A DNA stretch of 25,025 nt from an uncultured Planctomycetaceae bacterium (GTDB lineage: Bacteria > Planctomycetota > Planctomycetia > Pirellulales > Thermoguttaceae), in the NCBI GenBank assembly GCA_964479655.1, contig CAYZMZ010000005.1, positions 1-25,025 on the forward strand, given 5' to 3'. Shown piece after piece: positions 1,119 to 25,025 of the stretch. Position numbers and translations under genes: made by a program. The notes below the pieces were generated by a model. The model worked only from the letters and a program-made list of their open reading frames with translations, searched no databases and was not told the DNA's origin. The first letter of the stretch is position 1, and every line of letters begins with the position of its first letter.

Positions 1119-1267
1119 TATAAACTGCTACCACTTGAGTTTTTCCGGTTTATATTATCATAAACCAGTCGTTTCATTTCGCCCTGATCGTCAAAACTAG
1201 GATTTAACTCAACTTATTGGCGAAATCAAAACGACGTCAAGAGGAAAATTCAAGTAGTCATAGTATA
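1119..1267 (+). repeat. Dispersed ~150-bp palindromic element (MITE-like), copy 1
   Basis: CCACTTGAGTTTTTCC...GTCGTTTCATTTCGCC...GGCGAAATCAAAACGAC...GGAAAATTCAAGTAGTCATAGTATA; nested inverted repeats shared with the other copies. Confidence 0.92.
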
Positions 1268-1392
1268 AACAGATGCTTCGAGAAAACTCGAGTTGAATCT
1301 ATATATAATCCGTATAATCTGATTGCTACTCTTCCCTTTAAAGTCAAGTTTAGAATGTTTGCCATTTTTTGTCAAGGGCAATTTGGGTAATT

Positions 1393-1540
1393 TGTACTAT
1401 GATTACGCAATTTTTCCATCTACGTTGTTTTGATTTTACCCATTAAGCCCAATAAAAGGATTCCAAACTCTGTTTTACCGATCTGGACGCCTTGAAACGT
1501 CTTGAACAGTGGCATACAATCCGGAAATCTTCAAGAAACC
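1393..1540 (-). repeat. Dispersed element, degenerate copy 2
   Basis: TGTACTATGATTACGCAATTTTTCCATCTACGTTGTTTTGATTTTACC matches the reverse-orientation start TATACTATGACTACTTGATTTTTCC...GTCGTTTTGATTTCGCC; the other end ATACAATCCGGAAATCTTCAAG resembles ATATAAACCGGAAAAACTCAAG. Confidence 0.65.
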
Positions 1541-1824
1541 TCTTCTAAAATCCCGACAACCGATTTAGTATACAGCCCCCGTTCGCAAGAATTTTCAGAG
1601 AACGCGAAAGAAAGTACTCAACGACTTATAAATTAGACGGTTACATCAAAAACGAAAATAAATGTAGTCTGTTTAAAATAAAAAATACACCCGAATAGGG
1701 CATAGCCCCACAATGGCCGAAAAGCATTATATCCGGTACGACGAAACAGATATGGAGGCGGGAATAAATCTTGTTTTAACGTCAAGAAAGGCGGAGCCTG
1801 TAAAACAAGGGGAATCCGAAAACG

Positions 1825-1914
1825 TTTCGGGCACAAACATTTTAGAGGTATTAGAAAATACTCTAGCAGGCAAGGACGAAACGGGTATTTTTCAGGGCAC
1901 AATTTCGGGCACGC
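1825..1914 (+). repeat. Three short direct repeats, putative integrase arm-type sites
   Basis: TTTCGGGCACAA (1825-1836), TTCAGGGCACAA (1891-1902), TTTCGGGCACGC (1903-1914), about 110-200 bp beyond the tRNA-Arg 3' end. Confidence 0.55.
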
Positions 1915-1983
1915 AGGCGGTTGAAATAAATTGCAAGGAAAAACAGAAAGAATTGAATGAGCCTAGAAAACAGGGCATATTGC

Positions 1984-2023
1984 AAAAGAAAAGCCCTGCT
2001 TGCAACTCACTGCAAACAGGGCT
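1984..2023 (-). terminator. Intrinsic terminator after tRNA-Arg
   Basis: Minus strand reads AGCCCTGTTTGCA-GTGAGT-TGCAAGCAGGGCT followed by TTTCTTTT. Confidence 0.75.
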
Positions 2024-2025
2024 GA

Positions 2026-2099
2026 TACACCTCACTGGGTTCGAACCAGTAACCTTCGGTTCCGTAGACCGATGCTCTATCCAATTGAGCTAGAGGTGC
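2026..2099 (-). tRNA. tRNA-Arg(ACG)
   Basis: Reverse complement GCACCTCTAGCTCAATTGGATAGAGCATCGGTCTACGGAACCGAAGGTTACTGGTTCGAACCCAGTGAGGTGTA forms a cloverleaf with anticodon loop CT-ACG-GA and T-loop TTCGAAC. CCA is not encoded. Confidence 0.97.
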
Positions 2100-2274
2100 A
2101 TTCAATTCAAGATTCTTCATTCAAAGAACGCCTTGAATAATTACAATAATATAGTCTTTTGGACTAATCTTTCAAGGGGGGGAGAGAAATTATTTTGGTT
2201 TTATTCGCTTAAAGCATACATAAAAGCTCTATCGGCGGGGGCGATTCACGGTTCAAGCAGAAGAAAAAATCAAA

Positions 2275-2422
2275 TATACTGGTTCCATTTGAAATTTTCC
2301 GGCTTATATTATCATAAATCCATCGTTTCATTTCGCCCTAATCCGTAAAATAAGGAGCTTTTATTCCTTCAGGGGCGAAACCAAAACGCAGTCGACAGGA
2401 AAAATCACGCAGTCATGGTATA
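2275..2422 (+). repeat. Dispersed element, copy 3
   Basis: TATACTGGTTCCATTTGAAATTTTCC...TCGTTTCATTTCGCC...GGCGAAACCAAAACG...GGAAAAATCACGCAGTCATGGTATA. Confidence 0.9.
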
Positions 2423-2583
2423 AAACCTCAAAGCACGTCGGCAAGATATTCGTAATTGTCGGTAAAACCGTTGAAAATACAAATTCCAGGAATTATCGAC
2501 AAAAATAATCCCCCTCTCTAAATATCGCAAAAAACGATATTCAAAGAAGGGGATTACTACTGTTTCAACTGAACAAAATATTA

Positions 2584-23532: not shown

Positions 23533-23625
23533 TATATTTATTTAGGAATAAAATAGGAGGGATGCGCAAATAGGGCTTGCATATTTTTATACGTGCATAC
23601 AGCTACTTTTGCGATGACAATTAAT

Positions 23626-23772
23626 CATACTATAACCACCTGATTTTCTCGACCAACCCCGTTTTGATTTCGCCGCCGCAGGAATAAAACACCCGGTTTT
23701 ACGAACTAAGGCGAAACGAAACGGCTGTTTTACGGTAAAATAAGCCGGAAAATTTCAAGTGGATCTAGCATA
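23626..23772 (-). repeat. Dispersed element, copy 11
   Basis: CATACTATAACCACCTGATTTTCTC...CCGTTTTGATTTCGCC...GGCGAAACGAAACGGC...GGAAAATTTCAAGTGGATCTAGCATA. Confidence 0.88.
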
Positions 23773-23781
23773 TCGTTCCTT

Positions 23782-23810
23782 TATATAACATTTTTTTGTA
23801 TTTATTGCAA
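23782..23810 (-). promoter_or_regulatory. Putative promoter toward the lipoprotein gene
   Basis: Minus strand TTGCAA-17 nt-TATATA. Confidence 0.4.
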
Positions 23811-23844
23811 GGGCACTTTTTTACCGGAATATTTCGTTTTTGTC

Positions 23845-23872
23845 TTGACAAAATCGCGGTTTGGGTTAGGAT
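23845..23872 (+). promoter_or_regulatory. Putative promoter toward the response regulator
   Basis: TTGACA-16 nt-TAGGAT. Confidence 0.4.
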
Positions 23873-23970
23873 TGCAGAATATTCCCCGACATTGTATGAG
23901 TTTCCCCGATTGAAGTTCCCGTCAGAGATTTCAATTTCCGATAACAGGTAAATGGGGGGACGCGGTAAGA

Positions 23971-24116
23971 TATACGGGTTCTACTTGACTTTTTCCGGTT
24001 TACATAACAAACCGCAGTTGTTTCATTTCGCCCCTATCAATAAAACAAAGGGTTGTTTGATTCTGGAGGCGAAACCAAAACGCCGTCAAAAGAAAAACTC
24101 ATACAATCAGAGCAAA
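23971..24116 (+). repeat. Dispersed element, copy 12 (right end eroded)
   Basis: TATACGGGTTCTACTTGACTTTTTCC...GTTGTTTCATTTCGCC...ATAAAACAAAGGGTTGTTTGAT...GGCGAAACCAAAACG. Confidence 0.88.
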
Positions 24117-24180
24117 AAGTCAGTTTTAGAACAAATAGAATCGCCAACAATAATTCCAAGGGGGCAACCAACAAATAATT

Positions 24181-24894
24181 ATGACTACCAAGATACTGAT
24201 AATCGAAGACGAAGCCCATATCGCGACCGGATTGCAACTCAACCTTCAGTCCGAAGGATACGAAGTAGAAATCGCCTCTGACGGATTGACCGGTCTGAAC
24301 AAGGCGCAAAATTCCGAAGAGGGGTTTGATTTAATCGTTCTGGATTTAATGCTGCCTGGAATGAGCGGGTATTCGGTTTGCCAGCATTTACGCCAGCAGG
24401 GATATTTAATGCCGATTTTGATTCTTTCCGCCCGAACGCTTTCAGAGGATAGAACGCGGGGATTTGATGTCGGAGCCAATCAGTATTTAACCAAGCCCTT
24501 TGAACTGGACGAATTTTTAGCTCGCGTTCGCAATTTACTCCGCTTATCCGGTCAGGTTCCTTCTTCCGACAACGACGTACAAAGTGATCAGACGTATCAA
24601 TTTGGACACAACGAAGTTAATTTCAAAACGTATCAAGTTGTTGTAGGCGGAACGATTACGACTTTAACGGTTTTAGAAATGAAACTGTTGAGATATTTTA
24701 TTCGTCGAGAGGGGGAAATTGTATCGCGGGAAGAACTGCAAAAAAACGTGTGGGACATTCCCGCCGACATGAACACGCGAGCAGTAGACCAATTTATCCG
24801 TCGTTTGCGGAAAATATTTGAGTTAGACTCCGCCAATCCGCAGCATTTTGTTACAATGCGTAATATTGGCTATCGATTTATCGCCAACCCGTAA
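24181..24894 (+). CDS. OmpR/PhoB-family response regulator
   Basis: KILIIEDE, LIVLDLMLPG (phospho-Asp), LILSAR, GANQYLTKPF and a winged-helix C-terminus (RAVDQFIRRLRK...VTMRNIGYRF). Confidence 0.95.
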   Translation: MTTKILIIEDEAHIATGLQLNLQSEGYEVEIASDGLTGLNKAQNSEEGFDLIVLDLMLPGMSGYSVCQHLRQQGYLMPILILSARTLSEDRTRGFDVGANQYLTKPFELDEFLARVRNLLRLSGQVPSSDNDVQSDQTYQFGHNEVNFKTYQVVVGGTITTLTVLEMKLLRYFIRREGEIVSREELQKNVWDIPADMNTRAVDQFIRRLRKIFELDSANPQHFVTMRNIGYRFIANP

Positions 24895-24981
24895 TTCCAA
24901 CCGATACCTGCGGAGTAGAAGACAAAAAATTGTTGAATGGGCTTGATATAACCGGTCGGATCTATTCACACAGCAAGCTTC

Positions 24982-25025
24982 TGTACGGGCTTCATGAGAA
25001 ATTTACCCGGCTTATAATATCACAA
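24982..25025 (+). repeat. Dispersed element, probable copy 13 truncated by the window edge
   Basis: TGTACGGGCTTCATGAGAAATTTACCCGGCTTATAATATCACAA aligns with TATACTGGTTCCACTTGAAATTTTCCGGCTTATATTATCATAA. Confidence 0.55.

What the first reader, a model, noticed from the sequence alone, without database searches (positions are those of the whole stretch)
1119..25025. Unrecognised TATA-bounded ~150-bp nested-hairpin repeat family at 13 loci in 25 kb
Seen: copies at 1119, 1393, 2275, 6728, 7467, 8213, 10039 (partial), 16249, 19308, 20134/20344 (split), 23626, 23971 and 24982 (edge), in both orientations and nearly all intergenic. Consensus: TATACT-(N0-2)-GGTTCCACTTGA(G/A)TTTTTCC, a ~20-nt spacer, GTCGTTTCATTTCGCC, a variable 32-40-nt core, GGCGAAATCAAAACGAC, ~7 nt, then GGAAAAATCAAGTAGTCATAGTATA. 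The ends are imperfect ~26-bp terminal inverted repeats (TATACTggttCcACTTGAgTTTTTCC vs TATACTatgaCtACTTGA-TTTTTCC). The inner stem has a fixed asymmetry (CA on one arm, TGA on the other). Established: ERIC, pneumococcal RUP and neisserial Correia elements are similar-sized, TA/TATA-ended palindromic MITEs linked to IS630-type transposition. Inference: this is an analogous non-autonomous element family, at very high density, that I do not recognise from this lineage. No transposase is present in the window.
Basis: partly seen in the sequence, partly recalled or inferred. Interest (0 to 1): 0.85.

Follow-up and report, generated by a model that had tools for sequence, protein, structure and literature searches.

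The report
IS630-type MITE burst in Thermoguttaceae
The repeat is real and is a small non-coding "hitch-hiker" transposon of a known kind (an IS630/Tc1-type MITE), notable because about 1,070 copies fill a fifth of the non-coding DNA of this gut planctomycete genome.

Summary
All 13 reported loci exist, plus one solo end. In the window's own genome, a 3.64 Mb, 90%-complete MAG of 597 contigs, the family has 1,073 unique loci. Of these, 819 are near full length. Together they make up 3.85% of the genome and about 19% of its non-coding DNA.

- Copies are almost all intergenic and show no orientation bias.
- Stem pairs decay independently in individual copies, so neither RNA nor DNA structure is under selection.
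- 18 nested insertions are best reconstructed with a duplicated TA.
- A filled/empty site pair in a relative gives the same answer.
- IS630-family elements in two related genomes carry terminal inverted repeats that align with the MITE ends.
- HUH/Y1 (RAYT, IS200) genes are absent from both genomes that hold more than 1,000 copies.

The lineage is Thermoguttaceae (Planctomycetota), represented by gut and rumen MAGs. Sister MITEs with the same ends but different interiors occur at 1 to about 70 copies in all 8 congeners searched. A genome of another genus has its own burst, with 1,151 end matches.

No cognate transposase is assembled in the window's genome; only a decayed IS630-like relic with different ends was found. 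I found no Rfam family and no paper describing the element. Verdict: a new member of a known kind, with an unusually high copy number.

The parts
1119..1269 (+). full MITE copy
   Evidence: nhmmer 1121-1268, 135.6 bits; CM R1 156 bits
1392..1573 (-). degenerate copy with a ~24-nt insertion near its left end
   Evidence: nhmmer 1392-1535, 45.6 bits; alignment A1
2274..2424 (+). full MITE copy
   Evidence: nhmmer 135.0 bits
6726..6876 (-). full MITE copy, the best match to the family profile in the genome
   Evidence: nhmmer 144.3 bits; CM 173.7 bits; fold z -6.5
7466..7622 (+). full MITE copy
   Evidence: nhmmer 120.6 bits
8211..8362 (-). full MITE copy, 12 nt downstream of the gltX stop codon
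   Evidence: nhmmer 133.8 bits; ORF map
9963..10090 (-). partial, decayed copy (left end and first hairpin)
   Evidence: nhmmer 10037-10082, profile positions 7-52; the repeat finder D3/D6/D7
16248..16406 (+). full MITE copy
   Evidence: nhmmer 122.0 bits
16403..16446 (+). solo right-end fragment abutting the previous copy
   Evidence: the repeat finder D2 and I20; sequence
19306..19453 (-). full copy whose central core is inverted relative to its arms
   Evidence: nhmmer 126.5 bits; core matches other copies' cores better in reverse complement (score 18.7) than forward (7.7)
20134..20435 (+). split copy: left end at 20134-20160, about 185 nt of unrelated DNA, then the inner stem, core and right end from 20344
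   Evidence: orphan left end; nhmmer 20344-20435, profile positions 56-144; sequence
23625..23774 (-). full MITE copy
   Evidence: nhmmer 121.4 bits
23970..24120 (+). full MITE copy with a decayed right end
   Evidence: nhmmer 128.7 bits
24982..25025 (+). left part of a diverged copy cut by the contig end
   Evidence: read by eye in the sequence; too short for nhmmer

Best explanation
The repeat is a miniature inverted-repeat transposable element (MITE): a ~150-nt non-coding passenger of an IS630/Tc1-mariner-type DDE transposase. The element proper runs from TAC... to ...GTA and carries imperfect ~24-nt terminal inverted repeats, which are the inferred transposase binding sites. It inserts at a TA dinucleotide, which becomes duplicated, and that produces the TATAC...GTATA appearance of the ends. 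The nested hairpins are a property of the source copies and are not maintained in individual insertions. The family amplified to about 1,070 loci in this Thermoguttaceae genome. Insertions in genes were purged, the remaining copies have decayed neutrally to about 82% identity with the consensus, and the cognate transposase is now lost or unassembled. Shown here: the repeat family, its copy number, its intergenic and orientation-neutral distribution, the neutral decay of pairs, nested insertions, a reconstruction consistent with TA duplication, and similarity of the ends to IS630-family elements in relatives. Inferred: that an IS630-family enzyme actually moved these copies, and cut-and-paste chemistry, by analogy with ISY100 (PMC2170065).
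For: Copy number: 1,073 unique loci, 819 near full length, 140 kb or 3.85% of the genome. That is 19% of non-coding DNA, and 625 of 1,993 intergenic regions are occupied.

Distribution: only 24 of 819 copies lie in ORFs of at least 100 aa. Orientation relative to flanking genes is 175 same versus 192 opposite (p=0.40). Occupancy of tandem, divergent and convergent spacers is proportional to their length (chi-square p=0.66).

Decay: in 589 full copies, the Watson-Crick fraction of each stem equals the expectation for independent columns (for example P1 0.848 vs 0.843, P4b 0.861 vs 0.858). Only subfamily-defining pairs co-vary; pair 50-116 is T-A in 296 copies and C-G in 181. RNAalifold finds no consensus pairs in 29 diverse copies.

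Mobility and TA duplication: joining the flanks of 18 copies rebuilds a second copy, so these are nested insertions. The host copies fit the family profile best when exactly the left flank plus TAA is kept, with a summed score of 1070.8 against 1046.0 and 1043.5 for the neighbouring models. This model is the best one in 6 of the 8 best-scoring host copies. In genome G071, a sister MITE interrupts an IS630 transposase gene. A second copy of that IS lacks the MITE. Removing the MITE and one TA restores the exact length and reading frame, giving QRHVLKMYHV against QRHILKMYHV.

Link to IS630: the G071 IS630-family element has inverted repeats that begin TATACTCATTCCATTTTAAAATT. The G007 element (HTH plus DDE_3; NF033545 138.6 bits, cut-off 100) begins TATACTCA. 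Both align with the MITE ends. G071 also holds a 372-nt internally deleted IS bounded by the same repeats.

Patchy copy number: end-motif hits number 981 in G000, 1 to 146 in the 8 congeners, and 1,151 in G071, which belongs to another genus. Interiors differ between the families.
Against: No transposase with matching ends is present in the window's own assembly. DDE_3 gave no hit. tblastn with the relatives' transposases found nothing. The only IS630-like relic, at the end of contig C25, is internally deleted and has different ends that begin TATAGTC. IS630-family transposases occur in 52 of 61 genomes of the family, so co-occurrence alone carries little weight. The link therefore rests on similarity of the ends: by my own count on alignment A3, about 17 of 26 positions match between the G000 MITE and the G071 IS, and about 21 of 26 match within G071. 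The base after the right-hand TA is A in 92% of copies, with no mirror preference on the left. A symmetric TA-targeting enzyme does not predict this. The variable positions of the two terminal TATA motifs do not co-vary as direct repeats. The duplication is therefore supported only by the reconstructions and not by matching variable target duplications. No filled/empty polymorphism could be examined in this species.
Confidence: 0.85

Rival explanations
1. It is a MITE, but it is mobilised by a DDE transposase of a family other than IS630, and the similarity of its ends to the relatives' IS630 elements is coincidental.
For: No cognate IS630 is present in the own genome. IS630 elements are common in the family regardless of MITE load. 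Identity of the ends to the nearest IS is partial.
Against: TA duplication is the hallmark of IS630/Tc1-mariner elements (PMC2170065). Within G071 the IS and the MITE share about 21 of 26 end positions, and the IS has short deletion derivatives. Self-BLAST found no other multi-copy IS in the own genome.
Confidence: 0.07
2. It is a REP/BIME-like or IS200/IS605-type palindromic element moved as single-stranded hairpin DNA by an HUH (Y1) transposase such as a RAYT.
For: The element is hairpin-rich. Sequence preference at the ends is asymmetric: the right flank is conserved and the left is not. That pattern resembles insertion next to a fixed target word without duplication.
Against: Y1_Tnp is absent from both genomes with more than 1,000 copies (G000 and G071), yet present in congeners with few copies. 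The element has long terminal inverted repeats that match IS630 ends. The in-gene insertion in G071 is explained exactly by a TA duplication.
Confidence: 0.03
3. It is a selected structured RNA or DNA element, such as an sRNA, terminator, insulator or protein-binding site, and its copies are kept for function rather than being selfish DNA.
For: Single copies fold strongly, z down to -7.6. Subfamilies differ by a compensatory pair in the inner stem. The internal loop CA/TCA is conserved in 68% of copies.
Against: Rfam gives no match. There is no orientation bias relative to genes. Pairing in individual copies decays exactly as expected for independent columns. There is no alifold consensus. The same interior is absent from congeners. 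The consensus scan shows no systematic promoter or terminator signal in the copies.
Confidence: 0.05

Closest known systems
RUP (repeat unit of pneumococcus) with IS630-Spn1, Streptococcus pneumoniae
   Same: Both are ~100-150-nt non-coding elements with terminal inverted repeats similar to those of an IS630-family element. Both insert at TA and are mostly intergenic. RUP is reported to insert into and inactivate IS transposase genes (PMC2229807). The sister MITE in G071 does the same to its presumed parent IS630.
   Different: RUP has 108 copies and 9-bp inverted repeats (PMC2229807). This element has about 1,070 loci and ~24-nt repeats, with a three-way nested-hairpin interior. I did not test for sequence relationship. 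The host is Planctomycetota rather than Firmicutes, and no resident partner IS is assembled.
Correia / NEMIS elements of Neisseria
   Same: Size is similar (107 and 155 bp). Both have ~24-bp terminal inverted repeats, TA at the termini and a target duplication (PMC2229807, Table 1). Both are dense intergenic families with subfamilies that differ by an internal segment. From my own memory, the outermost bases are also alike (TATAGTGG versus TATACTGG).
   Different: Homology was not tested. The Correia transposase is not established. From my own knowledge, Correia carries an IHF site and promoter parts; neither feature was sought beyond a generic promoter scan. Copy number here is several-fold higher.
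ISY100 / IS630 / Tc1-mariner transposons
   Same: The relatives' partner elements encode an N-terminal HTH plus DDE_3 transposase. ISY100 inserts almost only at TA and duplicates it (PMC2170065), which matches the reconstruction here.
   Different: The element itself encodes nothing. The strong one-sided A after the right TA is not described for ISY100 in that paper.
REP/BIME elements with RAYT
   Same: Both are very abundant, intergenic and palindromic.
   Different: From my own knowledge, REPs are 20-40 nt, lack long terminal inverted repeats and depend on a Y1 HUH enzyme. No Y1_Tnp is present here.

Membership tests
Bacterial MITE of the IS630/Tc1-mariner type | Short (<~300 bp), non-coding, many dispersed copies | tested here: met
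   The unit is ~150 nt. There are 1,073 loci, 819 near full length, and 97% lie outside ORFs of at least 100 aa.
Bacterial MITE of the IS630/Tc1-mariner type | Terminal inverted repeats | tested here: met
   The imperfect ~24-26-nt ends are conserved in 589 copies. The outer stems P1 and P2 fold in single copies.
Bacterial MITE of the IS630/Tc1-mariner type | Insertion at TA with duplication of the TA | tested here: met
   Reconstruction of nested insertions is best with one TA retained, 1070.8 vs 1046.0 or lower. The filled/empty pair in G071 restores the reading frame only under the TA model. Caveat: the duplication is invariant, so it cannot be separated from the repeat by co-variation.
Bacterial MITE of the IS630/Tc1-mariner type | Ends resemble the inverted repeats of an autonomous IS630-family element | tested here: met
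   The IS630-family elements of G071 and G007 align with the MITE ends (alignment A3). Transposase identity is NF033545 and DDE_3. This feature is met in relatives, not in the own genome.
Bacterial MITE of the IS630/Tc1-mariner type | Cognate transposase present in the same genome | tested here: not met
   There was no DDE_3 hit and no tblastn hit. The only find was a decayed IS630-like relic with different ends at the end of contig C25. The MAG is 90% complete and repeats are often unassembled, so absence is not proven.
Bacterial MITE of the IS630/Tc1-mariner type | Presence/absence polymorphism between strains (recent mobility) | not testable with these tools
No conspecific contigs were found. 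Congeners are only about 75% identical in coding DNA and are not syntenic. Past mobility is shown by the nested insertions.
REP/BIME (RAYT-dependent) or IS200/IS605 PATE | Y1 HUH transposase (PF01797) in the genome | tested here: not met
   There are no matches in G000 or G071, the two genomes with more than 1,000 copies, although matches exist in low-copy congeners.
Structured non-coding RNA family | Pairing maintained by compensatory change, orientation relative to genes, and a match to a curated model | tested here: not met
   The observed Watson-Crick fraction equals the expectation for independent columns. There is no alifold structure. Orientation is 175 vs 192. Rfam gives no match.
Correia/NEMIS | Sequence homology to the Neisseria consensus; IHF site | not tested
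   No Correia sequence was at hand from a tool. The resemblance of the first 8 bases comes from memory only.

The most novel reading that the evidence does not exclude
The family may show oriented target choice by an IS630-type transpososome. The target-derived base after the right-hand TA is A in 92% of copies, and an A-tract follows in the clean nested cases, yet the left side shows no mirror preference. Known Tc1/IS630 targets are, to my knowledge, symmetric. Alternatively, the copies may have been moved by an enzyme supplied in trans from outside the genome. Either case would make these gut Thermoguttaceae a natural system for MITE bursts of more than 1,000 copies without a resident transposase.
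Probability: 0.12. Interest if true: 0.6.

Novelty: new member of a known kind. Interest (0 to 1): 0.45.

Why it matters
A survey of 183,232 prokaryotic RefSeq genomes reports at most 468 MITEs of all families in one genome, and speaks of "hundreds in microbial genomes" (bioRxiv 10.1101/2024.01.18.576219). Here a single family has about 1,070 loci in a 3.6 Mb genome. A sister family reached a similar load independently in another genus of the same bacterial family, while congeners carry only 1 to about 70 copies. This contrast offers a natural comparison for asking what permits or limits MITE bursts in bacteria.

There are practical consequences too. The repeat probably contributes to the fragmentation of these MAGs, since 68 raw nhmmer hits touch contig ends (before duplicates were removed). 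It will also create spurious ORFs and mislead repeat-naive annotation. The family profile could serve as a lineage marker. Mechanistically it is ordinary.

Tried and rejected
- BLAST of one copy against 40 relatives found nothing. The covariance model and end-motif searches were needed to see the sister families.
- Empty-site comparison with congeners failed. Coding identity is about 75% and gltX and the thioesterase gene are not syntenic.
- The closest metagenome contigs (83-91% amino-acid identity for GltX) lack synteny next to gltX and carry no copies.
- An exact-protein look-up of the neighbouring thioesterase found no record.
- A search for variable target duplications of 2-9 nt found only the invariant TA.
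- A search for IS-length pairs of ends in the own genome found only orphan ends.
- Self-BLAST found no multi-copy IS.
- My first scan for nested insertions found one case, and it was a different 106-nt palindromic insert. The joined-flank approach found 18.
- A first census of inverted cores was inflated by wrong-strand duplicate hits. After removing duplicates, only 2 of 584 copies are inverted.
- The 11 end-motif hits in viral contigs are one conserved phage gene with no partner end.
- The promoter and terminator scan showed nothing systematic in the copies.
- The top IS630 loci from 14 other genomes of the family do not carry these ends.
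Full report
**1. Observation**

The inner-stem 17-mer gives 9 matches against 0.14 expected, and the right end gives 5 against 0. The repeat finder and MAFFT recover a ~150-nt unit at every reported coordinate, on both strands.

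- An outer stem is formed by TATACT and AGTATA.
- An internal loop follows, GGTTCC on the left and AGTCAT on the right.
- A second stem pairs ACTTGA-TTTTTCC with its complement.
- Inside that is a three-way junction carrying a short hairpin and a long hairpin.
- The long hairpin has two 7-bp stems separated by an asymmetric CA/TCA loop, and they enclose a variable ~36-nt core.

Rfam gives nothing for the elements at gathering or at relaxed thresholds. The window's large ORFs are ordinary housekeeping and glycoside-hydrolase genes, with no transposase among them.

**2. Genome-wide census**

The window is contig C5 of a 3.64 Mb MAG with 597 contigs, 90% complete. A profile built from the nine full window copies gives 1,246 nhmmer hits. 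Of these, 173 are the same locus hit on the other strand, because the element is quasi-palindromic. The corrected count is 1,073 loci, 819 near full length, covering 140,155 bp or 3.85% of the assembly.

I mapped genes crudely as ORFs of at least 100 aa. On that map the elements are 19% of all non-coding DNA and occupy 625 of 1,993 intergenic regions. Only 24 of 819 lie inside ORFs.

Orientation relative to flanking co-directional genes is 175 same versus 192 opposite (p=0.40). The split over tandem, divergent and convergent spacers follows available length (chi-square p=0.66). This is the distribution expected for selfish DNA that is filtered out of genes. It is not what a directional regulatory signal would show.

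**3. Age and structure**

I analysed 589 full copies with flanks. Mean pairwise identity is 72.6%, median identity to the consensus is 81.9%, and median nearest-neighbour identity is 87.8%.

For every stem, the fraction of Watson-Crick pairs equals the value expected if the two columns vary independently. Examples are P1 at 0.848 vs 0.843, P2a at 0.802 vs 0.792 and P4b at 0.861 vs 0.858. The excess of compensated cells comes from a few subfamily-defining pairs. Pair 50-116 is T-A in 296 copies and C-G in 181, and pair 33-42 behaves the same way. RNAalifold finds no consensus pair in 29 deliberately diverse copies.

The hairpins therefore belong to the source elements and decay neutrally after insertion. 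Structure is conserved between sources but not within copies, which is what a MITE shows.

**4. Ends and target**

Conservation begins sharply at TATAC on the left and ends at GTATAA on the right. Beyond that, the flanks are only A/T-enriched. No variable direct repeat of 2-9 nt exists, and variants of the two terminal TATA motifs do not co-vary.

The decisive data are nested insertions. For 18 copies, joining the two flanks rebuilds another copy across the junction. I rebuilt each host while keeping 0 to 7 junction bases and scored it against the family profile. The summed score peaks at three retained bases: 1070.8, against 1046.0 for two and 1043.5 for four. This model is the best one in 6 of the 8 best-scoring hosts, where it wins by about 3-6 bits. 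Three retained bases (TAA) means one TA in the target, now present on both sides, plus a target-derived A.

An independent case comes from a relative (section 6). The one-sided A is present in 92% of copies, with no mirror T on the left. A simple symmetric model does not explain it.

**5. Lineage and distribution**

Record titles of public genomes that match the end motif name Thermoguttaceae and Planctomycetia MAGs. At least some come from animal guts, for example goat duodenum and RUG rumen bins.

A whole-copy BLAST finds nothing in 40 relatives. A covariance model does find weak hits in congeners, and these share only the ends (TATACT, six bases, ACTTGA, one or two bases, TTTTCC). Their interiors are unrelated and bring the elements to about 100-180 nt.

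An end-motif census gives these counts:

| Genome | End-motif hits |
|---|---|
| G000 (own) | 981 |
| G007 (same genus) | 146 |
| G001 (same genus) | 18 |
| G002 (same genus) | 17 |
| G005 (same genus) | 15 |
| G003 (same genus) | 10 |
| G008 (same genus) | 5 |
| G006 (same genus) | 4 |
| G004 (same genus) | 1 |
| G071 (another genus, Planctomycetia bacterium S1R_St_60) | 1,151 (its own variant of the end) |

Reverse-pattern controls gave 0 or 1 hit. In G071 the ends belong to a 110-nt MITE that is younger, at 87.7% identity to its consensus. The other 58 sampled genomes of the family have 0 or 1 hit. The superfamily is thus old in the lineage, with at least two independent bursts.

**6. The partner transposase**

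Y1_Tnp (RAYT, IS200) is absent from G000 and G071 but present in low-copy congeners. This argues against HUH-type mobilisation.

In G071, an IS630-family element (locus L142, minus strand, about 2538 to 1374) has inverted repeats that begin TATACTCATTCCATTTTAAAATT. These align with the G071 MITE end at about 21 of 26 positions and with the G000 end at about 17 of 26, by my own count on alignment A3.

Its transposase gene is broken by two MITE insertions. A second copy of the IS (L144) lacks the first MITE. Removing that MITE plus one TA restores the same length and reading frame, with a synonymous Leu codon and an Ile/Val change. This is a filled/empty pair consistent with TA duplication.

G071 also has a 372-nt internal-deletion derivative of the IS bounded by the same repeats. 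This is a plausible route from IS to MITE.

In G007, an IS630-family element carries HTH domains and DDE_3 (NF033545 138.6 bits, cut-off 100). Its two reading frames are split at a run of eight A. Its ends begin TATACTCA and also align.

IS630-family genes are common in the bacterial family, in 52 of 61 genomes. The argument therefore rests on the ends and not on co-occurrence. The best-scoring IS630 loci fetched from 14 other genomes do not carry these ends.

**7. What is missing**

The window's genome has no DDE_3 hit, no tblastn hit to the relatives' transposases and no multi-copy IS. Its only IS630-like sequence is an internally deleted relic at the end of contig C25, with stop codons and different ends that begin TATAGTC.

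Given 90% completeness and the usual loss of repeats from MAGs, the partner may be unassembled. The age of the copies fits loss of the partner equally well.

**8. Comparison with known elements, and novelty**

The closest parallel is RUP with IS630-Spn1. The shared features are similarity of the ends to the IS, TA targets, and insertion into IS genes (PMC2229807). ISY100 supplies the chemistry: TA insertion with duplication, by cut and paste (PMC2170065). Correia elements are similar in size and end structure, but their enzyme is unknown, and homology was not tested here.

No paper in the library couples Thermoguttaceae or Planctomycetes with MITEs of this kind. A census of 183,232 genomes reports a maximum of 468 MITEs per genome. 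That makes this single-family load of about 1,070 loci exceptional in number, but not in kind.

**9. Verdict**

This is a new member of a known kind. Confidence that it is an IS630-type MITE is 0.85. Interest is moderate, at 0.45, because of the extreme density, the two independent bursts and the unexplained one-sided target preference.

Noticed in passing
window 19307-19452: In this copy the central core is inverted relative to the arms. Genome-wide, only 2 of 584 copies show this; the other is G000 C209:4032-4187. It is therefore a rare event, probably template switching or recombination between the inner inverted arms, and not a feature of the family.
   Followed up: yes
589 full copies genome-wide; right flank of window copies, e.g. 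1269, 2424, 6726: The base after the right-hand TA is A in 92% of copies and the next is A in 54%. The mirror position on the left shows no preference. Nested insertions show that this A is target-derived. The oriented target preference is unexplained.
   Followed up: partly
L142 (G071 C132), minus strand about 2110-2005 and 1830-1725: The presumed parent IS630 transposase gene is itself interrupted by two copies of its MITE. This parallels the reported inactivation of IS genes by RUP.
   Followed up: partly
L142 (G071 C132), minus strand 2700-2540 and 1375-1240: The same ~165-nt sequence follows two successive right ends of the IS630 element. This suggests a tandem duplication of the IS together with its flank.
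   Followed up: no
L138 (G000 C258:3334-3593): One MITE copy carries a 106-nt insertion that is itself a different GC-richer palindrome. It may belong to a second small repeat family.
   Followed up: no
L239 (G000 C25, about 14690-15328, contig end): This is a decayed, internally deleted IS630-like element with stop codons and inverted repeats that begin TATAGTC. It is the only IS630 trace in the window's genome.
   Followed up: partly
L140 (G007 C295), minus strand near 985-975: The IS630-family transposase is split into an HTH frame and a DDE frame at a run of eight A. This could be a programmed frameshift, a sequencing error or a mutation.
   Followed up: no
window 10196-10224: A perfect sigma-70-type TTGACA-17-TATAAT lies about 120 nt upstream of the 1,619-aa hydrolase ORF that starts at 10343.
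   Followed up: no
window 20161-20343: About 185 nt of unrelated sequence replaces the first hairpin and part of the inner stem of the split copy. Its origin was not examined.
   Followed up: no
L241-L251 (IMG/VR contigs): The end motif occurs once in each of 11 viral contigs, within the same conserved sequence and without a partner end. This is a chance match in a phage gene and not a MITE.
   Followed up: yes
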